64,000 nt of DNA from Thermodesulfobacteriota bacterium (GTDB lineage: Bacteria; Desulfobacterota; Desulfobacteria; Desulfobacterales; SURF-7), in assembly GCA_049320885.1 (NCBI GenBank), contig JBMORA010000032.1, positions 32,001-96,000 of the forward strand, given 5' to 3'. Position numbers and translations under genes: made by a program. The notes beneath the pieces were generated by a model. The model was given only the letters and a program-made list of their open reading frames with translations, had not been told where the DNA came from and ran no database searches. Below are positions 9,433 through 28,984 of this stretch, piece after piece. Each line of letters opens with the position of its first letter. Positions within the stretch are counted from its first letter, which is position 1.

Positions 9433-10386
9433 ATGGCCCGTTCCAAGGTTCATCCCACCCATCGATTCGAATCCTGGCAAGTCTGGCCGGGATCGTATCA
9501 CAATCCACCGGCCGACGGAAATTTTCCATTTCCCGGCGACCGTTCCTTCACCATCACCCCGGAAACCCCCATCGCCTCCATGGGTTCGTGTTTTGCGCGG
9601 GAAATCCGCAAGGCGCTCCTGTCGGCCGGGTATCACTACATCACCGAGGAAGCCCATCATCCCGCCGCCATCCATGCCAGCGCTGCCTGGGAGCGGGTAT
9701 ACAACCCCCATTCCATCCGGCAGATCTTCGAGTATACCTTCGAAGAATGGCGGCCGGAGCTGCGCTGGTGGCATTGCCCCCAATCCGGCCAGATCCAGGA
9801 CCCCTATAGGCGGATTATCCTGTATGACAGCCTGGAGACCGCGGAGGCGGATTTTAGCCGCCACATCCTGCATTCCCGCAAGGCCCTGACCACGGCGGAA
9901 GTGCTGATCCTGACCCTGGGACTGACGGAAATATGGCAGGATCAGACCGACGGCGCCGTCATCTGTCTGCCGTCGGGCCCCTATGTGGAGGAGCAGGGCG
10001 ACATGAGCCGGTATCGGTTTCGAATCAGCCGCTATCCGGAAGTCCTTGAAAATCTGGAAAAAATTCACGCCATCATGGGCCGGGTCAATCCCCGGTGCCA
10101 TCTGGTGATAACGGTCTCCCCGGTTCATCTCTGGGCCACTTTCCGCAAGGATAGCGACGTCATCAGCGCCGGCTGCAATTCCAAATCAACCTTGCGGGCT
10201 GCGGCCGACGAATTTGCCGGTCTTCATGACAATGTGACGTATTTTCCGGCATTTGAAATGGCCACTATTTACACCGGCCTCTTGGGGCGAAGCTATTTTG
10301 CCCAGGGAAAGGAAAATTTTCATGTCAACCGGGAAACCGTGGCCTTCATCATGGATCATTTTTTCAAATTCTACAGCCAGCCTTAG
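9433..10386 (+). CDS. GSCFA-domain protein (SGNH/GDSL-like hydrolase or acyltransferase)
   Basis: Literal GSCFA motif, ILTLGLTEIW, ITVSPV.L..TF, SKSTLRAA, YFPAFE and a late H (FHV). Confidence 0.9.
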   Translation: MARSKVHPTHRFESWQVWPGSYHNPPADGNFPFPGDRSFTITPETPIASMGSCFAREIRKALLSAGYHYITEEAHHPAAIHASAAWERVYNPHSIRQIFEYTFEEWRPELRWWHCPQSGQIQDPYRRIILYDSLETAEADFSRHILHSRKALTTAEVLILTLGLTEIWQDQTDGAVICLPSGPYVEEQGDMSRYRFRISRYPEVLENLEKIHAIMGRVNPRCHLVITVSPVHLWATFRKDSDVISAGCNSKSTLRAAADEFAGLHDNVTYFPAFEMATIYTGLLGRSYFAQGKENFHVNRETVAFIMDHFFKFYSQP

Positions 10387-10445
10387 GGTCGCTTGAGAAG
10401 TGGCGGCGGAACCCGAACGCAACCCCAACCGGAACGGATACCAAC

Positions 10446-11678
10446 ATGGCGGCGGGATCGACATATAACATTCTGATGTATTCCCATGACACCTACGGTC
10501 TGGGCCATATCCGCCGGACCATGGCCATCGCCGACCACCTGCGGGGACCCAATGTCAACATCCTGATCCTGACCGGCTCCCCCATTGCCGGCCGCTTCTC
10601 TTTTCCGGATCAGGTGGATTTTGTGCGCATTCCCGGAATGATCAAAAAGACCAACGACGAATACCTGCCGATGTCCATCAAAATCGACGCCAGGCAAGCC
10701 CTCGACATCCGAACCAATATCATCACGGCAACCGCCAAAACCTTCCGGCCGCATCTGTTCATCGTCGACAAGGAGCCGCTGGGTCTGAAACGCGAAATTC
10801 TGCCCACCCTGGAATGGATGCGGGAATATCTGCCGGGAAGCCGCACCATCCTCGGTCTGCGCGACATCATGGATGACGCGGAAACCATCCGGCATGACTG
10901 GGAAAAAAAGGACGTGTACCGCATCCTCGATTCCCTGTACCATGAAATCTGGGTCTACGGCCTCCGCGAGTATTATGACCCCATCGCCGAATACGCCATT
11001 CCGGCCGCCGTGAGCGCCAAAATCCATTTCACCGGATACATTCCCCGGCGCAAGGCCGATCCGGCCACCATACAGAAAATAAAGAAAGAATATCCGATCC
11101 GCCCCGGGGAAAAACTCATTGTCGTCACCACCGGCGGCGGCGGCGACGGCTACAAGGTCATGGACAATTATCTGTCCATGATCGAAACCGAAACCCTGCC
11201 GGACAACATCAAGAGCGTTCTGGTGACCGGCCCGTTCATGCCCAAACGGCAGCGAAAATGCATCGACCAACGCGCCCGGCGCTACGGCATCCATTCCCAC
11301 CGGTTTTACCGCAGCATGATCGACCTCATGGCCGCCGCGGACCTGGTGGTCAGCATGGGCGGATACAATACTTCCTGCGAAATCCTGTCCCAGGCCACGG
11401 TTTCCCTGCTGATCCCCCGGGAGGAACCCCGCAAGGAGCAACTGATCCGCGCCCGGGTTTTTCAGCAACATGACCTGGTGGACTATATTCCCTGGTCATC
11501 CCTGACACCGGTCGCCTTGAAACAAAAGGTCATGGCCCTGCTCGAAGATCCGGGCGCCATACGCCGCGCCGTCTCCCGATTCGACATGACCGGCTTCCAT
11601 GTGATGAGGAAACGACTGGCAGCATTCCGGAACGGGCGCTGCCCGGACCGATTGCCTGTCCATCAAGGCACGGGATGA
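10446..11678 (+). CDS. GT-B glycosyltransferase (COG4671-like)
   Basis: YSHDTYGLGHIRR, GLRDIMD, TGGGGDG, VSMGGYNT, EQ.IRA motifs. Confidence 0.88.
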   Translation: MAAGSTYNILMYSHDTYGLGHIRRTMAIADHLRGPNVNILILTGSPIAGRFSFPDQVDFVRIPGMIKKTNDEYLPMSIKIDARQALDIRTNIITATAKTFRPHLFIVDKEPLGLKREILPTLEWMREYLPGSRTILGLRDIMDDAETIRHDWEKKDVYRILDSLYHEIWVYGLREYYDPIAEYAIPAAVSAKIHFTGYIPRRKADPATIQKIKKEYPIRPGEKLIVVTTGGGGDGYKVMDNYLSMIETETLPDNIKSVLVTGPFMPKRQRKCIDQRARRYGIHSHRFYRSMIDLMAAADLVVSMGGYNTSCEILSQATVSLLIPREEPRKEQLIRARVFQQHDLVDYIPWSSLTPVALKQKVMALLEDPGAIRRAVSRFDMTGFHVMRKRLAAFRNGRCPDRLPVHQGTG

Positions 11679-12988
11679 AAGCAACAAACCGCAACAGGGA
11701 ATCGCGCCCGCAAAAAGCCCCCTCCTTTCCGGTGCTCGGATTGATTCTCAAAGGCTACCCCCGGATTTCCGAAACGTTTATCTCCAATGAAATTCTTGGC
11801 CTGGAACGTCTCGGCTTTCACATCCGCATCTTTTCCATGCGTCAGCCCCGGGAATCCTTTTGCCATGCCAGTGTCCGTAGGATCAGGGCCCGGGCGGACT
11901 ATCTCCCGGAAATGCTGGCGGCGGCCCCCCTGAACTTTTTCACCGCCAATGCGCTTCTGGCCTTTTGCCGGCCGAAGCGCTATGCGGCCGCGTTCATGAC
12001 GGCCCTGCGGCGTTACCGTCGAACCCGCAAAGCCGCGACCTGGAAACACCTGCTCCAGGCCGGGTATCTGGTAAAACGGCTGGCGCCGGACGCCGGCGTC
12101 ACGCATCTGCACGCCCATTTCGCCCATTCACCCGCTTCCGTGGCCATGTTCGCCTCCCTGCTGAGCGGGATACCCTATAGTTTCACCGCCCATGCCAAGG
12201 ATATTTATACGTCGGACCCGGAACAACTCCGGGAAAAAATAAGCCGGGCCAAGATGGTCGTCACCTGCACCGAATACAACCGGCGCCATTTGCTCGCCCT
12301 TTCGGCGGGTATTCATACCCCGATTCACCGCAGCTACCACGGGATCGACACGGGGATGTTTGCACCGGAAAAATCATCGAACCAGCCCCCCGGTCCCCCG
12401 TTCCGGATTCTCACCGTGGCCCGTCTGATTCCCAAAAAAGGCCTTCCGACCGTCTATCACGCAGTGAAACGTATTCAAGAACAAGGACTTGCCGTTGAAC
12501 ACGACCTGATCGGCGATGGCGATGATCGTGACAAAATTCTGGGATTGATCGCCAAGCTGGGCCTGTCGTCCATCGCCCGCTGGCGCGGAACCCTCCCCCA
12601 TCATCAGGTGTTGGAATACTACAAGCGCGCCGATCTGTTTGTCCTGGGTTGTGAAATCGCGCCCAACGGCGACCGGGACGGTATTCCCAATGTCTTGATC
12701 GAAAGCATGGCCATGGGGGTTCCGGTAGTGGCCACAACCGTATCGGCCATTCCCGAACTCGTGGTGCATGGGCGCACCGGACTGCTCGTATCTCCCGGCG
12801 AACCGGAAGAAATGGCCCGGGCCATGACCACCCTTTTGACCGACAACCGGCTGCGAAACACCATCATTTCGGAGGCCCGCCAGGCGGTGCGGAAAAAATT
12901 CGACAACCGGACCCTGATCCATGAAATGGCGGAACTGTATGGCCGCGTCATGGAAACGCGAATCCGAACCGCCAGGCGTTACGGATAG
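11675..12988 (+). CDS. Glycosyltransferase family 4 (WcaL-like)
   Basis: YPRISETFI.NE, HAHFAH, FTAHAKDIY, VARL..KKG, DGIPNVLIESMA. ATGA overlap with the previous gene. Confidence 0.92.
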   Translation: MKATNRNRESRPQKAPSFPVLGLILKGYPRISETFISNEILGLERLGFHIRIFSMRQPRESFCHASVRRIRARADYLPEMLAAAPLNFFTANALLAFCRPKRYAAAFMTALRRYRRTRKAATWKHLLQAGYLVKRLAPDAGVTHLHAHFAHSPASVAMFASLLSGIPYSFTAHAKDIYTSDPEQLREKISRAKMVVTCTEYNRRHLLALSAGIHTPIHRSYHGIDTGMFAPEKSSNQPPGPPFRILTVARLIPKKGLPTVYHAVKRIQEQGLAVEHDLIGDGDDRDKILGLIAKLGLSSIARWRGTLPHHQVLEYYKRADLFVLGCEIAPNGDRDGIPNVLIESMAMGVPVVATTVSAIPELVVHGRTGLLVSPGEPEEMARAMTTLLTDNRLRNTIISEARQAVRKKFDNRTLIHEMAELYGRVMETRIRTARRYG

Positions 12989-13000
12989 AAGGGGCGGGCC

Positions 13001-13645
13001 ATGGGAATGGACGGACCGCCGGGAACGACTTTCGGCCTGCTGCGACACGGTCAAACCATCTGGAACCGGGAGGGACGGATTCAGGGGCAAGACGATTCTC
13101 CCCTGTCCCCGGAGGGTGAACGCCAGTGCCTTGCCTGGGGAAAACGCCTGCGGGAATTCCCATGGGAAAGAATCCTTGTCAGCGATCTGGGGCGGGCCCG
13201 CCGGACCGCCGACCTGGTCAACGAATCCCTCGGTGTTCCTGTCACCGTGGATCAGCGCCTGCGGGAGCAGGACTGGGGCCGCTGGAGAGGGTTGACCCTC
13301 CGGCAGATCACCACGGACAGCGCGGACGAACTGGAACGCCAGGTCAACGCCGGCTGGCATTTCCGCCCTCCGGACGGGGAAAACCGGCTTCACCTGCTGG
13401 AACGCAGCCGACTGGCGCTGGCGGACGCGGCCAGGCAGTATGAAGGTCAGACCATCCTGGTGATCACCCACGAGGGGGTTATCAAGGCCTTGCTGAACCG
13501 GCTCAGCAACCGGATGTTTCTGCCGGGGGAAGGCCCGCTGATGGAGCCGCTGCATCTCCATTTCCTCCGGCACGACGGCCGGGAACTCCATCTGCTTCAA
13601 ATCAACGCCGTTCCGCTGAAAAATGCGGAAACCGACACCGGGTGA
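13001..13645 (+). CDS. Histidine phosphatase (phosphoglycerate mutase-like) family protein
   Basis: LLRHGQT, SDL.RA..TA, LRE..WG.W.G, P.GE, VITHEG. Confidence 0.92.
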   Translation: MGMDGPPGTTFGLLRHGQTIWNREGRIQGQDDSPLSPEGERQCLAWGKRLREFPWERILVSDLGRARRTADLVNESLGVPVTVDQRLREQDWGRWRGLTLRQITTDSADELERQVNAGWHFRPPDGENRLHLLERSRLALADAARQYEGQTILVITHEGVIKALLNRLSNRMFLPGEGPLMEPLHLHFLRHDGRELHLLQINAVPLKNAETDTG

Positions 13646-13690
13646 GCATCCCCGGCAACGCTGGACTCCGACCATATCCCCACCGCCAGG

Positions 13691-14857
13691 ATGAAAATTC
13701 TCCAATATTGTCAATATATTCTCGGAATCGGACACCTCTGCCGCAGCCTGGAAATCAGTCGCGGCTTTGCCGGGCATGACGTGGTTCTGGTCACCGGCGG
13801 CCGGGATTTCCCTGTCGCTCTTCCGGAACGGGTGCGCGAACACCGGCTGCCGGCCCTGGTGATGGACGCCGAATTCAGCGGACTCAAAACTCCCGACCAG
13901 AAAAGATCCCTGGAGGCCATCAAGCTCCTGCGGCGGGCGCGCCTGACGGAAATCTTTCAAGCGGAAAAACCGGACGCGCTGCTGGTGGAGCTGTATCCCT
14001 TCGGACGCAAGGCCTTTCGTTTCGAGCTCGACCCGCTGCTGGAAGGCATCCGCAACGGAAGCCTGCACCGCTGTCTCGTTTTTTGCAGTCTGCGGGACAT
14101 CCTGGTGGAAAAGGACAATTCCCGGAAGCACGAGCACCGGGCCGTGGACATCCTCAACCGGCTGTTCGACGGCCTGCTGGTGCATGCCGACCCGGACCTG
14201 ATACCCCTGGACCGGACCTTTTCCCTGGCGACCGACATCGCCATCCCCCTGGACTATACCGGCTTCGTCTGCCCCGGCCCCTCGGCTCCCGCCGGGCTCA
14301 GGGCCCGGCTGGGAATCAGTCCCCGGGAAAAATGGATTGTCGCCAGCGCCGGCGGCGGGCAGGTGGGCGGCCCCCTGCTGACGGCCGTCATGGAAGCCGC
14401 CCGAAAACTGGCGGCGGACATACCTGTCCGGCTGCAGGTCTTTACCGGTCCGTTTCTGAACCAGCTGGAATATCAACTCCTGTCGTCCGGCCGGAATCAT
14501 CATATCCGCGTCCAGCGGTTTACGGACCGCTTTCCGGCCTACCTCGCGGAAGCCGACCTGTCCATCAGCATGGCCGGCTACAACACCTGCATGAACATAC
14601 TGGCCGCCGGGATTCCAGCCCTGGTCTGGCCTTTTCCCCAAAACCGGGAGCAACGCCTGCGGGCCGAAGCCCTGGCGGACCGGGGACTGCTCGGTGTCCT
14701 TTCCGAAACGGATCTGTCGGCTGACGGCATGGCCAATCGGATCCGGCAGGCCCTGAACCAGGGCCGTCCACCCGCAACCACGCTCCGGATCAACGGAGCG
14801 GAGGAGACCCGCCGTGTCGTGGAGGAACGGATCCGGAAACGGGAGGCCATTGCATGA
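13691..14857 (+). CDS. GT-B glycosyltransferase (COG4671-like), second paralog
   Basis: LGIGHL.RS, ELYPFGR..FRFEL, SLRDIL, SAGGGQVG, SMAGYNT, EQ..RA. Confidence 0.88.
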   Translation: MKILQYCQYILGIGHLCRSLEISRGFAGHDVVLVTGGRDFPVALPERVREHRLPALVMDAEFSGLKTPDQKRSLEAIKLLRRARLTEIFQAEKPDALLVELYPFGRKAFRFELDPLLEGIRNGSLHRCLVFCSLRDILVEKDNSRKHEHRAVDILNRLFDGLLVHADPDLIPLDRTFSLATDIAIPLDYTGFVCPGPSAPAGLRARLGISPREKWIVASAGGGQVGGPLLTAVMEAARKLAADIPVRLQVFTGPFLNQLEYQLLSSGRNHHIRVQRFTDRFPAYLAEADLSISMAGYNTCMNILAAGIPALVWPFPQNREQRLRAEALADRGLLGVLSETDLSADGMANRIRQALNQGRPPATTLRINGAEETRRVVEERIRKREAIA

Positions 14858-15696
14858 CGCCCGGCGTTTCAGCCCTCTGGCGCAAGCCCCTCCCGAAGGA
14901 TCTCGCTTCCCGCCTGGATGAAAGGCTGAGCCGGGTGCTGGGACGGAAAGACCGCCGCCGTCCCATCCAGGTTTTTTTCAGGGCCGACGATATCGGAGTT
15001 CCCGGCGAGCAGGTTTACCGGTTGATCCGCCTGTTCCTGAAATACCGCAGCCCCCTGAACCTGGCCGTGGTGCCGGCATGGCTGACGGCGCCCCGGTGGC
15101 GGAAACTCCGGGAAGCGGGGGCAGCCCATCCGGAACTCTGGTGCTGGCACCAGCATGGATGGCGGCATGTCAACCATGAACCGTCCGGAAAAAAGCAGGA
15201 ATTCGGCCCGGCCAGATCCCGGCACCGTATCCGGAAGGATCTGGCCGCCGGGTTCCGCCGGCTGGAAGAACTGCTGGGAAGGGATTTCACCCCGGTTTTT
15301 ACCCCCCCGTGGAATCGCTGCAGCAGAGAAACCATCGCCGTACTGTCGGAACTCGGGTATGCGGCTTTTTCCGCAAGCCCCGCTGTCTCCGAAGGATCCC
15401 CGTTTGCGGAGCCGTTGCCGAATTTTTGTGTTCAGGTGGACCTGCACACCCGCAAGGAATCCCGGGCGGACCGGGACTGGATAGCGCTGCTGGCCGAGCT
15501 GGAATCCGCTCTTTCCCAGAACCGCTGCGGAATCGTCATCCATCACCGACGGATGAACGACCAGGCTTTCCGGTTTCTGGAAACACTGCTGGAGCGTTTT
15601 GCCTTTCTGCCGGAAATCCGCATCCACCGCTTTACCGACATGCGGCGCATGGCCGCGCCGCCGTTTCCGGAGATGAAGGGGACCCCATCATGGTGA
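14854..15696 (+). CDS. Polysaccharide deacetylase-family protein
   Basis: FRADD, HQHGWRH and FTPPWN correspond to NodB-type motifs 1-3. ATGA overlap. Confidence 0.8.
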   Translation: MTPGVSALWRKPLPKDLASRLDERLSRVLGRKDRRRPIQVFFRADDIGVPGEQVYRLIRLFLKYRSPLNLAVVPAWLTAPRWRKLREAGAAHPELWCWHQHGWRHVNHEPSGKKQEFGPARSRHRIRKDLAAGFRRLEELLGRDFTPVFTPPWNRCSRETIAVLSELGYAAFSASPAVSEGSPFAEPLPNFCVQVDLHTRKESRADRDWIALLAELESALSQNRCGIVIHHRRMNDQAFRFLETLLERFAFLPEIRIHRFTDMRRMAAPPFPEMKGTPSW

Positions 15697-16379
15697 ATGC
15701 TGCGGAAACCCCGCACCCTGCCGACCGCGCCGACCGTCTTCTGGCCCTGCCCTTCGGCAAATCCGTCGCCATCGCCTTTCAAAGCATCCGGGTCCGCTTT
15801 CTGCGCTCTGCCATCACCGTGCTGAGCCTGGTTCTGGCCATCGCCTTTTTCTGTTTTCTGCGAATCAACGCCGACATCGCCGGCGGCATGCTGAAAACCG
15901 GAAATCCCGCCTTGCGGCTGGCCCTGGCGCGGGCCGGCCATGATGTCTCGCCGGACGCCGTCCGCATCGACAACACCCCGAAGCAGAAATGGATCCTGTT
16001 TCTGTCCCTCCTGGTCTGCGTGGTGGGGATTGTCAACGCCCAACTGATGGCGGTCAGTGAACGCATCCGTGAAATCGGCACCATGAAGTGTCTGGGAGCC
16101 CTGGACCGTTTTATCCTGCGCCTTTTTCTTCTGGAAGCCGGCATGCAGGGGCTTGCCGGAGCCGGTCTTGGAGCCGTTGCCGGAACCCTCGCCGCGGTGG
16201 GGAGCAGCCTGATTCGTTTCGGATGGCCGGCCATCCAAGCCCTTCCCGTTCAACAGGCGCTGAAATCGTTCCTGATCTCCATTGGCATCGGTCTTGTTCT
16301 GAGCCTCCTGGGGGTCGTCTACCCGGCCGCCAAAGCCGCCCGGATGCAGCCGGTCGACGCCATGCGCCGGGAGCACTAG
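15690..16379 (+). CDS. FtsX/MacB-type ABC permease with a very small periplasmic domain
   Basis: R.RFLRSAIT TM1; IVNAQLMAVSERIREIGTMKCLGA; YPA.KAARM.PVDAMR. Start ATG 15690 after a GGGGA RBS. Confidence 0.88.
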   Translation: MVNAAETPHPADRADRLLALPFGKSVAIAFQSIRVRFLRSAITVLSLVLAIAFFCFLRINADIAGGMLKTGNPALRLALARAGHDVSPDAVRIDNTPKQKWILFLSLLVCVVGIVNAQLMAVSERIREIGTMKCLGALDRFILRLFLLEAGMQGLAGAGLGAVAGTLAAVGSSLIRFGWPAIQALPVQQALKSFLISIGIGLVLSLLGVVYPAAKAARMQPVDAMRREH

Positions 16380-16420
16380 ATGGGATAGGCAGCCCCAAGG
16401 TGAAAGGTGAACAAACCGCC

Positions 16421-20100: not shown

Positions 20101-21983
20101 TTATCATCAGTCTTTCCCTCCTGGTGACCCTGATCATCTTTTTCCGGTTCGAGGCGGAAATGGCCCGCTTGCAACGCCACGCCAGTCCTTTGCATTTAAG
20201 CGAAATCAGCCGCGGCAAGGCGTTTCTTGCGGCTTTCTTTCTCGGGGCGGACAACCTGAGAAGGCGGCCCCTGCGCACCGGCTTGACCTGTATCACCCTG
20301 ATCATCCTGACCTTCACCATCATGAGCTTCACCACCGTCAAAACCGCCCGCCACCATTCCCGGGTTCGCTTCCGGGACGACCCGGCTTATCAGGGCCTGC
20401 TGTTCAAAAAAGGCAACTGGCAGAGCCTGCCGCCGGAAACCGTGAGCGCCCTTGCCGGAGCCTTTTCCCACGGCGATATCATCGCCCCCCGGGTGTGGCT
20501 GGAGGCCGATGATCCCACCCGCCCGGCCCGGATTCCCATCGGACACGGGGACCGCGTCTTCGATGCCCGGGGAATGCTCGGGCTTGCGGAAAACGAAGTC
20601 CACGTCACCGGAATGGCTCGCCTGCTCACCGGCGGCAGATGGTTTACGGCGAACGAGCGTCAGGCGGTGATCCTGCCGGACCGAATGGCCGCCCATCTCG
20701 GGATCGATCCGGAATCGCCGGAAGGCGCCAGCGTGCGAATCTGGGGCCGGCCCTTCGATGTGGTGGGCGTCTTTTCCGGCAGCCGGTTCCGGCGTTACGC
20801 GGACCTGGACGGCGAGCCGCTCACGCCGGTGACGTTTCCCGATGAAATCGTCACCGAGCTGAGCGAAGTCGAAATGGAAGCCGTGGAAGCCGGGGAGGAC
20901 ATCACCGATTTTCAAAGCCGCTACGAACACGTGGATGCCGACCTGACCGTCATCCTGCCGTTCCGGACGGTGGCCGCGGCAGGGGGGGCGCTGAAAAGCA
21001 TCGCGGTGGGAATGCATCCGACGGCGGATATCGGCGCGATTGCCCGGAAAATGGTGGATCGTTTCGGCCTGTCCCTGTTCAGCGGCGAGGGGCGGAATGG
21101 GTACCTGCATCAGGGTGGAGATGCCATTCGCTACAGCGGTTCGCCGGATATCTTTATTCCCATATGCATTTCGATCCTCATCGTGCTGAACACCATGATC
21201 GGCAGCGTCCATGAACGCAAGCGCGAAATCGGCATCTACACCTCCATCGGGCTGGCGCCTTCCCATGTCGCGTTTTTGTTCATCGCCGAAGCCCTGGCGT
21301 TCGCCGTCATCAGCGTCGTCATCGGTTATATCGTCGCCCAGATCAGCGCCACCCTCTTTGGGGGTATCTCCTTCTGGTCCGGCATCACGGTGAACTACTC
21401 CTCTCTTTCGGGTGTGGCCGCCATGCTTCTGGTGGTCATGGTGGTGCTGGTCTCCGTGGTCTATCCGGCCAAAACAGCGGCAAGCATCGCCATCCCGGAT
21501 GTCAACCGTTCGTGGACCCTGCCCGAATCCAGGGACAGCGTCATGGAACTTTCCCTGCCGTTCATGATTCAATCCCGCGAGCTTTCAAGTGTCTGCAGCC
21601 ATTTGCAGGCCTATTTCAAAGCCCACCAGGATGTCTCCCACGGCCTGTTTTCCACGGGCGAGATGACGACCGTCCATCCGGAAGCGTCTCCCGAATTCCA
21701 CCCCCGGCCGGATGTCCCGGCCTGCGCCCAGCTGCGCCAGAAAGTCTGGCTGGCTCCTTTTGATTTCGGCATCATGCAGCTGGTGACCCTGTCGTTTCGT
21801 TCGTCCGGGAGCGGCTGCGGGATGCTGGAAATGACGGTCCGGCTGGAACGCAAATCCGGCGAGACCAATGCCTGGTGGCGGATCAACAAGGTCTTCCTCA
21901 ACCGCCTGCGCAAGCAGCTGCTCATCTGGCGCTCCCTGGAAAAGGACGCCCGCTCCGGTTCCGGCGGCATATGTTATGACTGA
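17169..21983 (+). CDS. Giant FtsX/MacB-type permease fused to an N-terminal M28-peptidase-like/PA ectodomain (1604 aa)
   Basis: Signal peptide; DRSTGSPG...AA.FI; PA-like LIYVGRG...AALGARALIF; EAFYDS..PGADEALGV; a TM bundle; RRRPLRTGLT; VLNTMIGSVHERKREIGIYTSIG. Confidence 0.8.
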   Translation: MKRPKSILRSKTIRVLACLPAIAFLAAPECRADAREGLMRTVGELAAVQDRSTGSPGCIRAAAFIQAEFQAAGAGPVAVHRFTVPVRRWEKSRLTTEDGRRLTIHPLLLNAAAPETSAAMNTLAQLIYVGRGALADFNHQPVKDAIVLMDMDSGGNWRNAAALGARALIFLDGGISRDGNPEPTPNLFYKEKIELTPLHFPRFRVSRSAFNAWLGRDAGDGLKSPLPKATLFSRIAWENVVAENVYTKIEGRDPRLKKNLLVVEAFYDSTPLVAGLSPGADEALGVAGLISLAGFLKKHPPARSVLLVATSGHAQTLSGFRELVWSLRNETSFQAEREKHLRLELATADRCLSTLEKLARPNLPDDLSHTDIQAAITSQLKNRIDSISRKLIRLRMDPQNRNDTERTHLLVQDRQALQRLEWKNDLSVLSPEEVMRIRELLPSAVQQHRDYREAARLQLDLLESSRIFQECLAGQTISAVICLHLSSHGDGFGAFNKGWLYPLKPTVDRLRAYGALERCLQACALKTAASTGHPSMLADTLRPGSLKDWQSYLADRPELGGEVASLAGYPGISLVTVHDGRFFWGTPDDLPGNMDWEYAARQNAAVCSMIRDLAAHPGLESNKQPADGFSTVSGRVRRMRHGELFADRPVAGALVMAFQGTSRYYAMTDARGDFQLKGVCDKKHVLDKLIIEAFHFQPATGKIIAAIDKRLTGKDAYRLKIKRKDMRTDLILFTCRQTTLFDLLEPRNFNYMTKIELLDGFRDAPPLTYSYSRIDTRSSSMAAVFMEPRSRLKIILSDNLLSKKLLLTGTEPSHPQGIGYRAEDWPSLTYGSFRAATDMWALLSPRIANLESHGIFDESIRRIEDRGLKSLADARRYLDEGLYDRFHGAASTALALASRVYDQVDRTQKDVLFGVLFYIAFFVPFAFCMERLLFACTDIHKRILAFCGILALLVAIIYWVHPAFQLAYNPLVVVLAFIIISLSLLVTLIIFFRFEAEMARLQRHASPLHLSEISRGKAFLAAFFLGADNLRRRPLRTGLTCITLIILTFTIMSFTTVKTARHHSRVRFRDDPAYQGLLFKKGNWQSLPPETVSALAGAFSHGDIIAPRVWLEADDPTRPARIPIGHGDRVFDARGMLGLAENEVHVTGMARLLTGGRWFTANERQAVILPDRMAAHLGIDPESPEGASVRIWGRPFDVVGVFSGSRFRRYADLDGEPLTPVTFPDEIVTELSEVEMEAVEAGEDITDFQSRYEHVDADLTVILPFRTVAAAGGALKSIAVGMHPTADIGAIARKMVDRFGLSLFSGEGRNGYLHQGGDAIRYSGSPDIFIPICISILIVLNTMIGSVHERKREIGIYTSIGLAPSHVAFLFIAEALAFAVISVVIGYIVAQISATLFGGISFWSGITVNYSSLSGVAAMLLVVMVVLVSVVYPAKTAASIAIPDVNRSWTLPESRDSVMELSLPFMIQSRELSSVCSHLQAYFKAHQDVSHGLFSTGEMTTVHPEASPEFHPRPDVPACAQLRQKVWLAPFDFGIMQLVTLSFRSSGSGCGMLEMTVRLERKSGETNAWWRINKVFLNRLRKQLLIWRSLEKDARSGSGGICYD

Positions 21984-23988
21984 AGCTCGAATCTCAACCG
22001 GAGAAACCGGCGACCGCCCACCGAAGATCCGCCTTCGCGCCATTGTGCTGGGAATTCTGGCGGCCGCGCTGATCTGCCTGATCACGCCCTTTCATAACAT
22101 TTATCGCCAGGGGACCCCGCTTGGCGGCGGTCATTTCCCGCTGGCACCCTTCCTGCTGATGTTCTGGATCACCATTCTGGCGGCCGGGGTGAAAAAACTG
22201 ACCCGCGGGCAGGATTGGCTCACCGGCAAGGAGTTGATGATCGTCTGGGTTCTCACGACGCTTGTCTCTGGAATTGCCTATACCGGGCTGACCCGCACTT
22301 TCTTCATCAATCTCACCGCCCCTTATTACTACGCCACCATCGAAAATCGCTGGGCGGAAATACTGCAGCCGCTGCTGCCCTCCGCCTTATATCCGCGGGA
22401 ATACGCCGTCAGGCCCTTCTACGAGGGACTTGCCGGCGGTCGCGACATGGGTTGGCTCTCGATCTGCGGCCAGATCCCTTGGGAGGCTTGGCTGGCGCCC
22501 CTCCTGTTATGGGGGGGATTCATTCTGACCTGTTACGGTGTCATGATCTGCATGATCAATCTGGTGAGCCGGCAGTGGCTCCATAATGAACGGATGAACC
22601 TTCCGCTCCTGCGGGTGCCCATGATCCTTGCGGAGGCCTTCGATAACAACCGGCTTGGAAGCCTTTTGGCCGACGGCTTTCTGATCGCCGGTCTTGCCAT
22701 CGCCGCCGGCCTCCACCTGATCAACGGCCTGCATGTCTACCATCCCTCCGTTCCCCAGATCCCGACGCTGATCCTCGCCGGCGCCTATTTCCCTCCCGCC
22801 GGACTGTTCGATGGATTCCAAAAATTGACGATATATATATACCCGGCCTTCATCGGCTTCGCCTTTCTGACTTCCCGCCAGATCTCCTTTTCCTTCTGGT
22901 TCTTTTTCCTTGCCGGCAGTCTGCTGACGGGCCTCCTGCTCGTCATGGGATACAACATTCCCGCTTCGGCCCTGGGTGTCACCTTCGGACCGACCCTCAC
23001 CCGGCCGGAGGAAACCCAGATGATCGGCGCCTATTTCATTTTCTTCCTGTTTCTGGTCTGGCTGGGACGCCATCATTTTACAGAAATCGTTTCCGATGCA
23101 TTGCATTTCAAGACGCCGGGGCCCTCCCGCACCGAATGGTTTCCCACCAGCCTGTCCTTCTGGGGGTTGCTCACAGGTCTCGGCGTCATCGTGCTCTGGT
23201 TCTGCTGGTTCGGCCTGAGCCTGTGGTTGTCGCTGATGGTGGTCGGTGTTTTTTTCATGGTCATGCTGGTGGCCACCCGGGTGGTCTGCCAGGGCGGTGT
23301 GGCCTATTATACGCTGACAACCTCGCCCCTCGACGGACTCACGGCCTTCGGGGGCCCCCGGATGTTCAGCCATGCCGGCATTCTGATGGCCGCCGTAACC
23401 CAGAAAGTGCTGTTCGTGGACCTGCGGGAATCCCTGATGCCTTCGTTACTGCATGCCGGGGAAGTCACCCACCGGGAAAAAAACCGCCATATCCTGCTGG
23501 CTGGCATCGCCCTCACCCTGATCGTCGGGGTCGCGGTATCCTTCCTTGCCATGCTGGCCCTGTGCTACAAATTCGGCGCCCGGGAGCTGGAACTCGAATG
23601 GGCCACCCGCACCACGCTCACCGTATATGAAACCATCAAAACCGCCGTGGAATCCCCGGACCGGACCGGCGACTGGGTGCCTTTTTTCACCAGCCTGGGC
23701 GCGGGTATCATGCTGCTCCTGGTGATCTGCTATCACCGGGCCTACTGGTGGCCCATTCATCCCATCGGATATCTGACGGCTTACAGTTCCGCCATGCGCA
23801 TTCTCTGGTTCAGTTTTTTCGTGGGCTGGTTGTGCAATTCGCTCTGCCTGCGCTATGGCGGCATCCGGTTGTTCAAACGCCTCAGCCTGTTTTTCGTCGG
23901 CCTCATCATCGGAGATTTTCTGATGGCCGGAATCTGGGCCGTGGTCGGCCTGGTGAGCGGCGGCAGCTACGCGGTCCTGCCCACCTGA
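21976..23988 (+). CDS. Polytopic membrane protein, DUF6785/DUF6784-like (OPT-related by inference)
   Basis: About 16 TM segments; W..W..PL..WG, RQW..NER...PL, WWPIHPIGY, F.GLIIGDF. Family name recalled from memory. Confidence 0.65.
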   Translation: MTEARISTGETGDRPPKIRLRAIVLGILAAALICLITPFHNIYRQGTPLGGGHFPLAPFLLMFWITILAAGVKKLTRGQDWLTGKELMIVWVLTTLVSGIAYTGLTRTFFINLTAPYYYATIENRWAEILQPLLPSALYPREYAVRPFYEGLAGGRDMGWLSICGQIPWEAWLAPLLLWGGFILTCYGVMICMINLVSRQWLHNERMNLPLLRVPMILAEAFDNNRLGSLLADGFLIAGLAIAAGLHLINGLHVYHPSVPQIPTLILAGAYFPPAGLFDGFQKLTIYIYPAFIGFAFLTSRQISFSFWFFFLAGSLLTGLLLVMGYNIPASALGVTFGPTLTRPEETQMIGAYFIFFLFLVWLGRHHFTEIVSDALHFKTPGPSRTEWFPTSLSFWGLLTGLGVIVLWFCWFGLSLWLSLMVVGVFFMVMLVATRVVCQGGVAYYTLTTSPLDGLTAFGGPRMFSHAGILMAAVTQKVLFVDLRESLMPSLLHAGEVTHREKNRHILLAGIALTLIVGVAVSFLAMLALCYKFGARELELEWATRTTLTVYETIKTAVESPDRTGDWVPFFTSLGAGIMLLLVICYHRAYWWPIHPIGYLTAYSSAMRILWFSFFVGWLCNSLCLRYGGIRLFKRLSLFFVGLIIGDFLMAGIWAVVGLVSGGSYAVLPT

Positions 23989-23992
23989 AAAA

Positions 23993-24225
23993 CAATTACG
24001 AATTAGGAATTACGAATTACGAATTGTGGTATTCTATCAATTTGGATACCATACGGATGTATATTCGGAGCCGACCTTCGTTCGTAATGGTTTTCATCGC
24101 CTTCAGCGGAAAAATCAAAATTGAAATTGACAGCATGCCTTCATTCGTAATTCCTAATTCCTAATTCGTAATTGAAATTGACAGCATACCTTCATTCCTA
24201 ATTCGTAATTCGTAATTCGTAATTG
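23993..24225. repeat. MITE-like element: inverted heptamer arrays flanking an AT-rich core, with a 51-bp tandem duplication
   Basis: The left arm is (aattacg/aattagg)x4 at 23994-24021 and the right arm is (cgtaatt/cctaatt)n ending at 24225. A 51-bp unit is repeated at 24119-24169 and 24170-24220. Confidence 0.75.
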
Positions 24226-24230
24226 CTTTT

Positions 24231-26186
24231 ATGGATCGTGAGTTAAAAGAATACCGCGACCTCCTGACGGTTCCGGACCGCTTCGAGGAGGGCTTTGACT
24301 GGAAAACCGTCATCGGCGCGGTCTTCATCGGTTTTCTGATGATGCCCGGAAGCATGTACCTGCAGCTGATGATCGGTACCGGCATCGGCCCGGCGGCCCG
24401 CTGGGTCACCATTATCCTGTTCGCCGAAATCGCCAAGCGCGCCTATACGGAAATCAAGCGCCAGGAAATATTCCTGCTGTATTACATGGCCGGTGCGGCC
24501 ATGGCCTCGCCCTTCCAGGGACTTTTGTGGAGCCAATACCTCGTGCAATCGGACGCGGCCCGCATGCTCGGCCTTGCGGAATTCATTCCGGCATGGGTGG
24601 CCCCCCCGCCGGAAACCGCCTCCCTCCTGGAGCGAACCTTTTTTCACCGCGACTGGCTGATTCCGATCCTGCTGCTGGTGGGTTCCCAGCTGATTCAACG
24701 CATTGATCATTTCGGGCTCGGCTATGCGCTGTACCGGCTCACTTCGGATGTGGAAAAACTGCCCTTTCCCATGGCTCCGGTGGGAGCCCTCGGCACCATG
24801 GCCCTGGCGGAATCCACTGAAGAAAAGGAAACCGGCTGGAAATGGCGGGTGTTTTCCATCGGCGGCGTGATCGGCCTGGCCTTCGGCGGAATCTATGTCC
24901 TGCTGCCGGCGGTTTCCGGACTGCTGTTGATCGAACCCATTCGTCTGATTCCCCTTCCCTGGGTGGAATTGACCCGCTACACCGAGGGCCTGCTGCCGGC
25001 GGTGGCCACCGGGATCCAACTCGACCTGGGGCTGGTGTTCATCGGAATGGTGCTCCCCTTTTGGGCGGTCATCGGAGGATTGGCAGGGCTTTTCATCACC
25101 ATCCTTCTGAATCCCATTCTCCACCATCACGGCATCTTGCGCAGATGGCACGAGGGCATGGGGACCGTGGACACAGTCTTCGCCAACAATTTCGACTTTT
25201 ACATGAGTTTCGGAATCGGCCTGGGCCTGGCCATCGCCTTCGTCGGCGTCTTTTATGTGGTGAAATCCTTTCGGCAGGATCCGGGCGCTCCAAGGGGTTC
25301 CCTGAAAGACCTGCTGAAAACGCATCCCGGACGCGGCGATATCAGCATCTGGATCTCCCTTGCCATCTATCTGCTATCCACTCTCGCCTATATCGCCCTT
25401 TGCCGTCTGCTGGTGCCGAATTTCCCCTGGATTTTTTTCCTGGCCTACGGTTTCATCTATACGCCTGTTCTGTCCTATATCACGGCCCGAATGGAAGGCA
25501 TCGCCGGACAATTCGTCAGCCTGCCCATGGTGCGGGAAATCAGCTTTATCGCCGGCGCCAAATATTTCGGTTACCAGGGCATTGAAATCTGGTATGCCCC
25601 CATTCCCATCCACAATTACGGCGAGGCGACGGTCCACTTCCGTCAGATCGAACTCACCGGAACCAGCATCCGCGGCATCATCAAGGCCGAACTGGTGGTT
25701 TTTCCGGTGGTGATTATCGCCGGCCTCCTGTTCTCCCAGTTTATCTGGCGGCTGGCGCCGATTCCTTCCGCGGCCTATCCCTATGCCCAGGAGTTGTGGC
25801 ATTTGCAGGCCCTGAACTCGCTGTTGATGCAGACCTCGACCCTGGAAGGCAATTCCTTGTTTCTGCAATCCCTGACCGGCAACTATGTCCTGGCCGGGCT
25901 GGGATTCGGCCTGCTGGCCTACCTCCTGTTGAACCTGATGGGCCTTCCCGTGCTGCTGATCTACGGGATTATCCGGGGCCTGGGGCAGACCACCCCCCAC
26001 GGCATGCTGCTCGAAGTCGTCGGCGCCTTTCTGGGGCGCTTCTTTTTCCTGAAACGGTACGGCGCCATGTGGCGGCAATACGCGCCGGTTCTGCTGGCGG
26101 GTTTCTCCTGCGGCATGGGACTCAGCGGCATGTTCGCCATGGGATTCGCCTTGATCGTCAAATCCCTGACCCGCATGGCCTATTGA
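24231..26186 (+). CDS. OPT-superfamily-like membrane transporter (peptide transporter)
   Basis: 651 aa and highly hydrophobic; YL.L..G, W.TIILF.E, QE, EKLPFPMA and G...G motifs typical of OPT/YSL-like proteins. Confidence 0.65.
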   Translation: MDRELKEYRDLLTVPDRFEEGFDWKTVIGAVFIGFLMMPGSMYLQLMIGTGIGPAARWVTIILFAEIAKRAYTEIKRQEIFLLYYMAGAAMASPFQGLLWSQYLVQSDAARMLGLAEFIPAWVAPPPETASLLERTFFHRDWLIPILLLVGSQLIQRIDHFGLGYALYRLTSDVEKLPFPMAPVGALGTMALAESTEEKETGWKWRVFSIGGVIGLAFGGIYVLLPAVSGLLLIEPIRLIPLPWVELTRYTEGLLPAVATGIQLDLGLVFIGMVLPFWAVIGGLAGLFITILLNPILHHHGILRRWHEGMGTVDTVFANNFDFYMSFGIGLGLAIAFVGVFYVVKSFRQDPGAPRGSLKDLLKTHPGRGDISIWISLAIYLLSTLAYIALCRLLVPNFPWIFFLAYGFIYTPVLSYITARMEGIAGQFVSLPMVREISFIAGAKYFGYQGIEIWYAPIPIHNYGEATVHFRQIELTGTSIRGIIKAELVVFPVVIIAGLLFSQFIWRLAPIPSAAYPYAQELWHLQALNSLLMQTSTLEGNSLFLQSLTGNYVLAGLGFGLLAYLLLNLMGLPVLLIYGIIRGLGQTTPHGMLLEVVGAFLGRFFFLKRYGAMWRQYAPVLLAGFSCGMGLSGMFAMGFALIVKSLTRMAY

Positions 26187-26223
26187 AAAACAGTCACAAC
26201 CGACCCATCGGAGACAACCGAAG

Positions 26224-26829
26224 ATGAAAACAACCCTGCCGGTCATCCCGCTTTTCCTCATCCTGATCGCCGTCACCGGTGATTGTCAGGATATCCCCCG
26301 CCAGGTTGGCGGCTTTATCCTGGGAACCGACATCCGCCAGTACCGGAACCGCCTCCGGGAAACCACCGCCATGCCCGTTCGTTATAAGGCCTATCTCGTG
26401 GAAATCGAAATCCGTCCGGATGCCTATTTTAAAAGCGGCCTGATCGCCTATGGAACCTGCGACCAATCCGAAAAAATCCTTCGCATCCGGCTGAAATACC
26501 GGGACGGCAGCCGGACGTTTTACGAGCAGCTGCTGGAACGCCTGAAAAAACGTTTCGGGGAGCCGGTTGAATGGCGGGGCGACCCGTTTCAAACCGTCCT
26601 GGCCTGGAAATGGTCCTTCATCGACCGGCAACAAAACGCCGTCAGCCTGACCTTGCAGCACAATACCAAGGACAAGGAACAAAAACTGGGCAATTCCATC
26701 AAATTGACCCTGACCAGTCAGATTCGGAAAGAACAGGCCTGCCATCAGGCGCGGGCAGCGACACCCGTGGACCCGCCCATCCCTTCCATCTCCGGTCCTG
26801 TTGATTGGCGGCTGCTCATTCCGGAATGA
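26224..26829 (+). CDS. Hypothetical exported protein
   Basis: N-terminal hydrophobic signal; IGGF.LG-like start and L.KRFGEP; lies within the operon. Confidence 0.7.
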   Translation: MKTTLPVIPLFLILIAVTGDCQDIPRQVGGFILGTDIRQYRNRLRETTAMPVRYKAYLVEIEIRPDAYFKSGLIAYGTCDQSEKILRIRLKYRDGSRTFYEQLLERLKKRFGEPVEWRGDPFQTVLAWKWSFIDRQQNAVSLTLQHNTKDKEQKLGNSIKLTLTSQIRKEQACHQARAATPVDPPIPSISGPVDWRLLIPE

Positions 26830-27725
26830 ACACAACACATTCCGACTGGCTTGAAACCGCCTGGAACGGCATCCGTTTCCGCAGGCCGCCCCACTGGGAA
26901 ATCACCCGCATCGGCAACCAGGACCTTCTGCTCGCGGATGAGGAAGGCCCGGTCCTGGAAATCAAATGGGGGCCGGCAAGCGGAACTTTTTCCCATGACG
27001 CCCTGTTGAAGCGGCTTGCCCTGAAACATCGGCTTCATGGGCCACCCGGTTTTTCGGCGATTCCGGTCCCCGAAGAATGGGTGCAGGGGCTCCGACGGTT
27101 TCGTCTGTCCGGCTTCGAATGGCGCGACGGGACCACCGGCGGCCGGGGGGTGATTTTTGATTGCCCCCGCTGCTCCAAGGCAGGCCTGATTCAGTTCATT
27201 CATCGGCCCAACCGGAACCATTTCCCGGATATTTCCTCCAATGGGATTTCCACGACCCTGCTGGCCTCTTTCCGCGATCATTCCGAAGACGGCCGGAACC
27301 TGTTTGCCTTGTACGACATCCGGCTTGTCGTGCCGGAAGCCTTCCGACTGCACAGCTACCGTTTTACCGCCGGGGCTTTCGAATTGCACTTCCGGCACCG
27401 GCGGATATCCCTGACCTTCTATCGCTGGGGACTGGCCGGTTTGCGGCTGGCGGGCAACGATCTGGCGCTTTTCGGCAGGAAGATTTTCGCCGTTACAAAC
27501 CCCGTGACCCAGGAAAACCGGTCCGCAACGGAAGAATCCGTTGAATGGCGACTCGCCGCCCCACCCTGGTGGTCACGCCTGATTTCCAAGGCTCCCTTTC
27601 AGCAATGCCGCTTGCGGTACATTGAATCCCGGGATCGCATCCTCGGCGTCCGTATCACCGGGAAACAACCCATAAACGACGGGATTTTCAGGCAACTCAC
27701 CCAGGATTTTACCCTTGTTCCGTAA
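26826..27725 (+). CDS. Hypothetical protein
   Basis: ATGA coupling to the upstream gene and overlap with the PqqD gene; WNGI.F..P..W, CPRC, ALYD.RL.VP..F.L. Confidence 0.7.
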   Translation: MNTTHSDWLETAWNGIRFRRPPHWEITRIGNQDLLLADEEGPVLEIKWGPASGTFSHDALLKRLALKHRLHGPPGFSAIPVPEEWVQGLRRFRLSGFEWRDGTTGGRGVIFDCPRCSKAGLIQFIHRPNRNHFPDISSNGISTTLLASFRDHSEDGRNLFALYDIRLVVPEAFRLHSYRFTAGAFELHFRHRRISLTFYRWGLAGLRLAGNDLALFGRKIFAVTNPVTQENRSATEESVEWRLAAPPWWSRLISKAPFQQCRLRYIESRDRILGVRITGKQPINDGIFRQLTQDFTLVP

Positions 27726-28104
27726 AACCCAACCACCCCCGATAACGCACCGCCAGGCCCTGGAGTGCCGACCGATCCGCAACGCGGAAGTCGTCACTTC
27801 GCACCTGGAATCGGGCGCGGCCCTGCTGACGTATCCCGTTCGCCCAAAGCCCTGGCTCGCGGCCCTGGTGCGGTTGGGGGCGCGCCTGTCGCGGGACAGG
27901 TCCGGAGGAGGGAACCGGTCCGGAAAACTGGAGCTGGATGGATTGGGGACAGCGGTATGGGACATGGTGGACGGACGCCGATCGGTCCGGGAAATCGTGG
28001 AGCAATTCACCCGGCAGCAACGCCTGCATCCCCGCGAGGCGGAAATCGCTGTCACCCGTTTTCTGCGGGAACTGGGCAGACGCGGCATTATCGGGCTCGG
28101 CTGA
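27715..28104 (+). CDS. PqqD-family / RiPP recognition element (RRE) protein
   Basis: LELDGLGTAVWDMVDGRRSVREIVEQF....L..REAE..V..FLRELGRRGII is the PqqD winged-helix signature. TTG start. Confidence 0.85.
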   Translation: MFRKTQPPPITHRQALECRPIRNAEVVTSHLESGAALLTYPVRPKPWLAALVRLGARLSRDRSGGGNRSGKLELDGLGTAVWDMVDGRRSVREIVEQFTRQQRLHPREAEIAVTRFLRELGRRGIIGLG

Positions 28105-28467: not shown

Positions 28468-28487
28468 TTTCTCTCCTTACTTACCGG

Positions 28488-28976: not shown

Positions 28977-28984
28977 ATTTTCCC

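What the first reader, a model, noticed from the sequence alone, without database searches (positions are those of the whole stretch)
9433..28104. Candidate undescribed glyco/peptide envelope system: sugar-tailoring enzymes + M28-MacB ABC machine + two OPT-like transporters + orphan PqqD/RRE
Seen: 14 co-oriented genes, seven junctions of which overlap (11675/11678, 14854/14857, 15690/15696, 17169/17182, 21976/21983, 26826/26829, 27715/27725), so they look like one operon. Established: PqqD/RRE domains bind peptides; OPT proteins move peptides or metal chelates; FtsX/MacB ABC systems act mechanically on periplasmic substrates; GT-B enzymes, histidine phosphatases and NodB-type deacetylases build and tailor glycosides. 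Inference: a cytoplasmic module makes a glycoconjugate and a large membrane complex exports, attaches or re-imports it. I know of no characterised pathway with this combination.
Basis: partly seen in the sequence, partly recalled or inferred. Interest (0 to 1): 0.85.

Follow-up and report, generated by a model that had tools for sequence, protein, structure and literature searches.

The report
ATP-driven sugar importer beside envelope-glycan genes
These genes join a known but chemically unidentified envelope-sugar pathway to an undescribed membrane machine that likely uses one ATP motor to drive interchangeable carrier proteins, and here likely takes fragments of the cell's own envelope sugar back in.

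Summary
The 14 genes and seven overlaps are real. They form two modules. (1) The sugar enzymes, plus an exporter just outside the finding, correspond to the Sinorhizobium 'PPP' envelope-glycan genes (five of nine in this window, a sixth elsewhere in the genome). (2) The rest is an undescribed machine: a type VII ABC motor whose peptidase-fold outer domain has lost its zinc ligands, two OPT/YS1-fold proteins, and small partners. In 201 sampled Desulfobacteria the two modules co-occur (55 both, 4 discordant). The machine occurs without these sugar genes in 46 of 46 genomes of other phyla. There DUF6785 is multi-copy (median 14 matches). In 171 Planctomycetota it never appears without the motor (29 of 29). 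Its paralogs sit beside carbohydrate-degrading genes (29 of 152 neighbours against 2 of 96 controls). Desulfobacterota keep one copy and lack the rhizobial sugar-type importer. Best reading: an ATP-driven oligosaccharide importer (one motor, swappable carriers) that here recycles PPP-type glycan. Coupling, direction and cargo are inferred. The scan noted this machine and the PPP link before on other DNA; the glycosidase-neighbour evidence was not among the notes I saw.

The parts
9433..10386 (+). GSCFA-family protein; accessory part of the glycan block
   Evidence: PF08885, E 1e-46. Present in 33 of 201 class genomes, 29 of them among the 57 with the machine.
10446..11678 (+). GT-B glycosyltransferase (COG4671-type), counterpart of S. 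meliloti RedA / SMb21264
   Evidence: 41% identity over 343 aa; gene identity from Data Set S1 coordinates.
11675..12988 (+). GT4 glycosyltransferase, counterpart of RedB / SMb21265
   Evidence: 38% identity over 410 aa.
13001..13645 (+). Histidine phosphatase (RHG motif intact)
   Evidence: PF00300; motif. Same position in the Sulfitobacter cluster, 34% identity.
13691..14857 (+). GT-B glycosyltransferase (COG4671-type), counterpart of SMb21266
   Evidence: 36% identity over 392 aa.
14854..15696 (+). NodB/CE4-type deacetylase, counterpart of SMb21253
   Evidence: 31% identity over 252 aa. SMb21253 assigned by position and product name. DD and HxxxH motifs present.
15690..16379 (+). Small FtsX-type permease without a large periplasmic domain; likely partner subunit of the motor
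   Evidence: PF02687; conserved in the core across phyla.
16421..17182 (+). LolD/MacB-type ABC ATPase, all motifs intact
   Evidence: about 75-88% identity across Desulfobacterales loci.
17169..21983 (+). 1604-aa motor subunit: PA + M28-fold outer domain without zinc ligands, beta-sandwiches, three extra TM helices, MacB/FtsX permease, conserved C-terminal domain
   Evidence: AF2 model of residues 34-1070, pLDDT 88.8. M28/PA fold, VIA Z 26. Ligand loss. FtsX part matches YtrF/MacB/LolC.
21976..23988 (+). DUF6785/DUF6784 protein, homolog of the OPT-fold protein; proposed exchangeable cargo carrier
   Evidence: PF20581/PF20580; HHalign to the 24231 family 97.7%, E 1.7e-12, 540 columns; copy numbers.
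23994..24224 (.). Heptamer tandem repeat arrays in opposite orientations; lineage-specific insertion, not part of the machine
   Evidence: found in this gap in 1 of 80 loci examined, L009 from the same genus.
24231..26186 (+). OPT/YS1-fold membrane protein; constant, highly conserved core subunit
   Evidence: AF2 pLDDT 87.4. Barley YS1: Foldseek E 4e-11, TM 0.65; VIA Z 21.4, rmsd 4.2, 547 aligned. 77-91% identity across the class sample.
26224..26829 (+). Exported hypothetical protein; found here only in Desulfobacterota loci
   Evidence: N-terminal hydrophobic segment; no Pfam or PDB match; distribution.
26826..27725 (+). Soluble hypothetical protein conserved in the core; PsbP/DUF3805-like fold is a lead only
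   Evidence: No PDB match. Atlas nearest named clusters score below 0.9.
27715..28104 (+). Stand-alone PqqD/RRE-fold protein; conserved core partner, no peptide-modifying enzyme nearby
   Evidence: PF05402 E 2e-9; matches lasso RRE and PqqD structures; in 16 of 42 fully flanked loci of other phyla.
28117..29018 (-). STAS anti-anti-sigma factor and RsbW-type kinase; recurrent neighbours
28985..29512 (-). cNMP-binding protein, positional counterpart of SMb21270
   Evidence: PF00027; 26% identity. Not the best genome-wide hit, so orthology rests on its position beside the exporter.
29487..31994 (-). Type IV ABC exporter, counterpart of the PPP exporter SMb21269; ATPase motifs intact
   Evidence: 27% identity over 755 aa. 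In 59 of 201 class genomes, including all 57 with the machine. Motifs.

Best explanation
The locus joins the enzymes of a PPP-type envelope glycan to a membrane machine that likely works as an ATP-driven oligosaccharide importer, and that here likely recovers fragments of that glycan. Shown: homology of five window genes to genetically defined PPP genes; the folds; loss of the peptidase ligands; co-occurrence; copy numbers; neighbourhoods. Inferred step 1: the cytoplasmic GTs, phosphatase and deacetylase build a modified oligosaccharide or glycan, and the type IV exporter at 29487 moves it out. Inferred step 2: two ATPases, the small FtsX protein and the 1604-aa protein form a type VII motor, whose dead M28/PA domain acts as a binding or capture surface, as in the transferrin receptor. 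Inferred step 3: the 24231 OPT-fold protein is the fixed membrane partner of the motor, DUF6785 is the cargo-specific elevator-type carrier that docks onto it, and the PqqD-fold and 299-aa proteins are cytoplasmic adaptors. In other phyla one motor would serve many DUF6785 carriers in polysaccharide-utilisation loci, like the S components of ECF transporters. In sulfate reducers only one carrier is kept.
For: PPP homology; same enzyme order in Sulfitobacter. Co-inheritance in the class sample of 201: OPT-like 57, RedA-like 57, both 55; exporter in all 57. Phylum sample of 251: all 16 OPT-bearing genomes have RedA-like genes. The slot is an importer's: three alphaproteobacterial clusters carry an SBP_bac_5 ABC importer beside RedA. 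Its binding protein is closest to solved sugar-binding proteins (SPH1118 is pectin-binding, abstract listing). It matched only 1 of 201 Desulfobacteria, weakly. DUF6785 has 1 match in each of 20 Desulfobacterota genomes with the machine, and 3 or more in 27 of 29 other genomes. Four of 5 genomes tested have one motor and one OPT core with 10-18 DUF6785 matches. In 171 Planctomycetota all 29 DUF6785 genomes have the motor, 1 has the motor only, and 141 have neither. Carbohydrate-degrading neighbours of DUF6785 paralogs: 29 of 152 genes against 2 of 96 control genes; 23 of 39 loci against 2 of 20.
Against: No transport, binding or transcript data. YS1, the only solved relative, is a proton symporter and needs no ATPase (PMC9691689). 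The type VII examples in the classification table I read are exporters (PMC8386196), and I recall no importer of this type. 16 of 39 paralog loci have no carbohydrate gene among the neighbours scanned. The genomes are related, the loci were top-scoring hits and not a random draw, and these phyla are rich in CAZymes, so the enrichment is overstated. RedA and the OPT gene lie within 26 kb in only 24 of 55 genomes; many assemblies are fragmented, but some splits are real (G152, large contigs). G122 has the glycan block and exporter with no motor or DUF6785 match. One Latescibacterota genome has 7 motor matches, so 'one motor' is not universal. The PPP lyase SMb21259 and methyltransferase SMb21271 were not found in this genome, so no enzyme that would release fragments is identified.
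Confidence: 0.5

Rival explanations
1. The machine exports, flips or attaches the glycoconjugate made by the GT block.
For: Translational coupling of the deacetylase to the FtsX gene; co-inheritance; type VII systems usually act outward; the M28-fold domain also matches the GPI transamidase subunit (7w72_A, Z 19.3).
Against: The machine occurs without the GTs in 46 of 46 genomes of other phyla. A separate exporter with intact motifs accompanies all 57 class genomes. Rhizobial loci with PPP genes showed no match to this machine's membrane proteins. DUF6785 paralogs sit beside degradative enzymes.
Confidence: 0.17
2. The OPT-fold proteins are proton-driven sugar carriers, and the ABC module does not power the transport stroke. 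It assembles, gates or resets them, or captures and hands over periplasmic substrate.
For: YS1 is proton-coupled. The outer domain is related to the non-catalytic M28 proteins nicalin (E 1e-6) and the transferrin receptor. Strict co-occurrence fits dependence of any kind.
Against: Intact ATPase motifs and about 80% conservation of both the ATPase and the OPT core suggest a continuing shared cycle. The motor gene lies in the OPT locus in 45 of 55 loci with enough upstream sequence.
Confidence: 0.2
3. A peptide or RiPP handling system: the RRE binds a leader peptide, the M28 domain trims it, and OPT proteins move peptides.
For: PqqD/RRE fold; OPT fold; database names 'peptide transporter'.
Against: The first zinc His is F or Y in 100 of 110 aligned sequences; the Glu-Glu pair and the last His are lost. 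No radical-SAM, YcaO or lanthipeptide enzyme among the window's genes. Paralog neighbours are mostly glycan enzymes where they can be named.
Confidence: 0.08
4. Two unrelated modules that became neighbours in a Desulfobacterota ancestor.
For: Each module occurs without the other in other phyla; the order is split in several families.
Against: They are kept or lost together even when on different contigs (55 both, 142 neither, 4 discordant of 201), with patchy presence inside families such as f7.
Confidence: 0.05

Closest known systems
Sinorhizobium meliloti PPP (phazolicin-protecting polysaccharide) cluster, smb21252-smb21271 (PMC10128002)
   Same: Counterparts of SMb21264, 21265, 21266, 21253 and 21269 in the window (27-41% identity) and of SMb21252 on contig C63 (34%); a cNMP protein beside the exporter.
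   Different: No match to the lyase SMb21259, the methyltransferase SMb21271 or the binding protein SMb21261 in this genome. The exporter keeps its ATPase motifs, which are degenerate in three alphaproteobacterial homologs. The FtsX/OPT machine stands where an SBP-dependent importer stands in rhizobia. The PPP product is itself chemically uncharacterised.
Type VII ABC systems (MacB, LolCDE, FtsEX, YtrEF, YbbAP)
   Same: LolD/MacB-type ATPase, FtsX transmembrane domain, MacB periplasmic core; two different permease subunits.
   Different: A 900-residue pseudo-peptidase outer domain, three extra TM helices, a C-terminal domain, and constant OPT-fold partners. An import role is not described for the family in what I read.
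OPT family / barley YS1 (7wsr, 7wst)
   Same: Whole-chain fold match for 24231; DUF6785 is homologous to it by profile.
   Different: 13-14% identity. YS1 is a stand-alone homodimeric proton symporter of iron chelates; here the genes never appeared without an ABC motor in the samples searched.
ECF (type III ABC) importers
   Same: Works-like analogy only: one energising module and many scattered carrier genes.
   Different: No EcfT or S-component folds; the motor is type VII and the carriers are 650-aa OPT-fold proteins.
Non-catalytic M28-fold proteins (transferrin receptor, nicalin, nicastrin, GPAA1)
   Same: M28 fold without zinc ligands; PA domain as in the transferrin receptor.
   Different: Fused to an ABC permease in prokaryotes; ligand unknown.

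Membership tests
PPP pathway (S. meliloti) | Core GTs SMb21252, 21264, 21265, 21266 and deacetylase SMb21253 | tested here: met
   SMb21252 counterpart on contig C63.
PPP pathway (S. meliloti) | Exporter SMb21269 | tested here: met
   27% identity over 755 aa; best genome hit.
PPP pathway (S. meliloti) | Lyase SMb21259, methyltransferase SMb21271, linked nucleotide-sugar dehydrogenase SMb21256 | tested here: not met
   The first two have no tblastn hit at E 1e-5 in G000; the third has only unlinked hits (best 35%, contig C25).
PPP pathway (S. meliloti) | Same product; protection from peptide antibiotics | not testable with these tools
   Product uncharacterised even in S. meliloti.
Type VII ABC | FtsX/MacB transmembrane domain with periplasmic core and a cognate LolD/MacB-type ATPase | tested here: met
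Type VII ABC | Mechanotransmission to a periplasmic partner, no transmembrane transport of its own | not testable with these tools
   Feature recalled from the MacB literature; needs structures or assays.
M28 peptidase | M28 fold | tested here: met
M28 peptidase | Zinc ligands and catalytic glutamate | tested here: not met
   First His is F/Y in 100 of 110 rows and H in 8; the Glu-Glu positions are G/A and H; the last His position is G/D (positions placed by the alignment).
OPT/YS1 | YS core + scaffold fold | tested here: met
   24231 by predicted structure; 21976 by profile homology only.
OPT/YS1 | Proton-coupled uptake of peptides or metal chelates | not testable with these tools
   Context points to sugars; coupling unknown.
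RiPP RRE system | RRE fold | tested here: met
RiPP RRE system | Linked precursor peptide and modifying enzyme | tested here: inconclusive
   No modifying enzyme among the genes scanned; short precursor ORFs were not searched for.
ECF transporter | EcfT and S-component folds | tested here: not met
   The membrane subunits are FtsX- and OPT-fold.

The most novel reading that the evidence does not exclude
A new class of primary-active importer: a type VII ABC motor drives OPT/YS1-fold elevator carriers. One motor serves up to dozens of interchangeable DUF6785 carriers, making DUF6785 a main, so far unrecognised oligosaccharide uptake route of Armatimonadota, Latescibacterota, Gemmatimonadota and some Planctomycetota. 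The single-carrier version in sulfate reducers recycles the PPP envelope glycan, which makes this locus the place where the cargo can be identified.
Probability: 0.4. Interest if true: 0.93.

Novelty: categorically new. Interest (0 to 1): 0.8.

Why it matters
If right, it adds an importer architecture outside the known ABC importer types and gives a function to DUF6785, a family present in a median of 14 matches per genome in the polysaccharide-degrading, mostly uncultured lineages sampled. It also extends the PPP pathway, known only genetically from rhizobia, to about 28% of sampled Desulfobacteria. It predicts that PPP is turned over and re-imported. The one-carrier version in sulfate reducers and the many-carrier version in Abditibacteriota give two direct tests.

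Tried and rejected
Complex prediction of the motor's extra TM region (model residues 820-1031) with the OPT protein gave no verdict: score 0.20, mark 0.32, controls not folded. It counts neither way, and the other possible pairs were not tried. RNA runs: none was listed. Cluster-member names for distant homologs could not be looked up. Promoter and terminator scan at chance level: 6 against 6.3, and 26 against 22.8. Pairwise BLAST of 21976 against 24231 showed nothing; the profile comparison did. No solved-structure match for the 24231 profile, the 299-aa, 201-aa or GSCFA proteins. Literature: DUF6785 in 0 papers; no paper with 4 of PqqD / FtsX / oligopeptide transporter / M28 / glycosyltransferase; COG4671 in 0 papers; redA/redB search gave only unrelated papers; two searches listed nothing on this system. 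Subscription journals are mostly outside this library. Archaeal neighbourhoods were not examined; a distant OPT tier exists (one member named Thermoprotei; Atlas DUF6785 clusters archaeal). The DUF1559 prepilin-like neighbour (5 of 152 against 1 of 96) is too rare to use.


Full report
Observation. The 14 co-oriented genes and the seven overlaps are as described. Close homologs of the 24231 protein are named Desulfobacterales or Desulfobacteraceae, so the host is probably a sulfate-reducer-type bacterium. Pfam and NCBIfam give GSCFA, two GT28-C GT-B enzymes, a GT4, a histidine phosphatase, a weak NodB deacetylase, a small FtsX permease, a LolD-type ATPase, a 1604-aa FtsX/M28/MacB protein, DUF6785/6784 and PqqD. 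Three proteins have no family. Directly downstream, on the minus strand, lie STAS, RsbW-type, cNMP-binding and type IV ABC exporter genes, which recur beside the cluster in relatives.

The sugar half is a known pathway. An earlier scan note (e1-9870109) pointed to PPP, and I tested that. Travin et al. (PMC10128002; passages; rows of Data Set S1) list nine S. meliloti genes needed for an uncharacterised 'phazolicin-protecting polysaccharide'. Against pSymB, 10446 matches SMb21264/RedA (41%), 11675 SMb21265/RedB (38%), 13691 SMb21266 (36%), 14854 SMb21253 (31%; assigned by position and product) and 29487 SMb21269 (27%). The SMb21252 counterpart (34%) is on contig C63, beside a third GT distantly related to RedA. 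SMb21259 and SMb21271 had no hit, and SMb21256 only unlinked ones. A Sulfitobacter plasmid has the same order RedA, RedB, GT4, phosphatase, GT, deacetylase. All three alphaproteobacterial clusters read carry an SBP_bac_5 ABC importer. In S. meliloti its four genes show no fitness effect with phazolicin (log2FC -0.41 to +0.53). Its binding protein is closest to solved sugar-binding proteins: SPH1118 and an alpha-galactoside-binding protein. SPH1118 is pectin-binding (PMC9314435, listing and abstract start only). PMC10315480 (passages) adds only that PPP genes are induced by predation.

The machine. The 24231 model (pLDDT 87.4) matches barley YS1 over the whole chain: Foldseek E 4e-11, TM 0.65; VIA Z 21.4, next hit 6.0. 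DUF6785 is its homolog (HHalign 97.7%, 540 columns). YS1 is a dimeric, proton-coupled elevator transporter (PMC9691689, passages). The outer part of the 1604-aa protein (pLDDT 88.8) has the PA + M28 architecture but is not a peptidase. In 110 aligned sequences (near-duplicates not removed) the first zinc His is F or Y in 100, and the Glu-Glu pair and the last His are replaced. Its C-terminal part matches YtrF, MacB and LolC. The ATPase motifs are intact.

Are the halves linked? In an even sample of 201 Desulfobacteria genomes, 57 have the OPT protein and 57 the RedA-like GT. Fifty-five have both, G138 and G151 only the first, G019 (a fragment) and G122 only the second. All 57 have the exporter, which occurs in 59. 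GSCFA is in 29 of the 57. In 251 genomes of the phylum, all 16 with the OPT protein have RedA-like genes, and 3 have only a distant RedA (34-37%); those three and G122 and G019 have no motor match. Physical linkage is looser: within 26 kb in 24 of 55, the rest on different contigs, partly through fragmentation. Kin are not independent, so these counts are descriptive. Outside Desulfobacterota the link disappears. Of 80 loci from the genome collection I set aside 10 Desulfobacterota-type loci. None of the 42 remaining loci with 9 kb on both sides holds a RedA-like GT, deacetylase, phosphatase or exporter match, while the motor gene is in 45 of 55 loci with 7 kb upstream. Whole-genome search of 50 of these genomes found RedA in 0 of 46 from other phyla and 4 of 4 Desulfobacterota-type ones (completeness not reported, some assemblies small).

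What does the machine carry? Four of five genomes tested have a single motor and a single OPT core with 10-18 DUF6785 matches; the fifth has 7 motor matches. In 171 Planctomycetota-phylum genomes, DUF6785 was found in 29 and the motor in 30, and all 29 are among the 30. I fetched 40 paralog loci from 15 genomes, taken from the top-scoring hits, and called genes with my own codon model. One locus (L274) was dropped because the DUF6785 gene was not called. Up to two neighbours on each side were scanned. By my hand classification (glycoside hydrolase, BNR sialidase-type, sulfatase, carbohydrate esterase, CBM) 29 of 152 neighbours are carbohydrate-degrading: GH13, GH66, GH32, GH43, GH2, GH27, GH31, GH39, GH42 and others, several with LacI regulators. 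The control gave 2 of 96 genes from 20 evenly placed regions of 7 of the same genomes (one control region itself held DUF6785 genes). By locus it is 23 of 39 against 2 of 20, or 20 of 36 after merging four orthologous loci (Fisher p 0.001, overstated by relatedness). Loci such as L238 (amylase, dextranase, DUF6785, LacI) and L239 (two GH32, DUF6785, LacI) look like polysaccharide-utilisation loci with DUF6785 in the transporter's place. Finally, the rhizobial binding protein SMb21261 matched only 1 of the 201 Desulfobacteria, weakly and partially.

Mechanism. Together this favours a modular importer: a type VII motor with a dead-peptidase capture domain, a fixed OPT-fold partner, and exchangeable DUF6785 carriers. 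Sulfate reducers are not known for living on sugars (recalled), keep one carrier, and keep it with the PPP genes and exporter. Recovery of their own envelope glycan is therefore the simplest cargo; uptake of a precursor cannot be excluded. Physical coupling, direction and cargo are inferred, not shown. Rivals are an export or attachment role (0.17), proton-driven carriers with an ABC module for assembly or delivery (0.20), a peptide system (0.08) and chance adjacency (0.05).

Known and new. The glycan block is a variant of PPP: membership is met for the core enzymes and exporter and not met for the lyase and methyltransferase. The motor is a type VII ABC by domain content. The classification paper lists importers as types I-III, some importers in types IV and V, and export for type VII (PMC8386196, passages). 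No paper in the library mentions DUF6785 or the gene combination. The scan has met this machine several times on other DNA and the PPP cluster too. A look-up for the glycosidase-neighbour result returned no note. That holds for three alphaproteobacterial homologs, but the Desulfobacterota version keeps the signature and Walker B in 37 of 37 ORF copies and Walker A in 35 of 37 (overlapping loci included).

Verdict. Real, conserved and largely undescribed. Interest 0.8.

Noticed in passing
window 9396-9426, 23994-24025, 24143-24224: Heptamer tandem repeats (units ATTCGTA/ATTCCTA) in intergenic DNA; 31 arrays of three or more units in the genome; the pair in the 242-nt gap is inverted and could fold back.
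   Followed up: partly
window 29487-31994 against L186:32148-34436, L235, L236: The PPP exporter has intact ATPase motifs in Desulfobacterota but degenerate ones in three alphaproteobacterial homologs.
   Followed up: partly
L227:9026-11307 (G000 contig C63): SMb21252-like GT4 and a third, distantly RedA-related GT with no Pfam hit form a detached pair of the same pathway.
   Followed up: partly
L191 (G122:C19): Glycan block with exporter, an FkbM and another methyltransferase, and a porin-like ORF, but no motor or DUF6785 found in that genome; the contig ends shortly after.
   Followed up: partly
proteins P0122, P0123, P0129, P0130, P0142, P0145, P0146: Distant OPT-core homologs carry inserted beta-propeller, PDZ or FGE-like domains, mostly near query residue 540.
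   Followed up: no
L238, L239, L259, L265: DUF1559 prepilin-like genes sit next to DUF6785 in sugar-utilisation loci (5 of 152 neighbours).
   Followed up: no
L254, L269, L275: Large membrane-fused spermidine-synthase-like proteins recur beside DUF6785 paralogs.
   Followed up: no
window 42275-47971 and 48146-53557: Two tandem giant Ser/Thr kinase-AAA-GAF-histidine kinase proteins.
   Followed up: no
window 4208-7424 (minus strand): Outer-membrane barrel-like protein (weak alginate-export hit) and FG-GAP repeat protein upstream of gatB; link to the cluster not tested.
   Followed up: no
window 7475-8938 and 32292-34526: gatB and queA/tgt flank the cluster; gatB and queA recur beside it in several families, suggesting an old insertion site.
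   Followed up: partly
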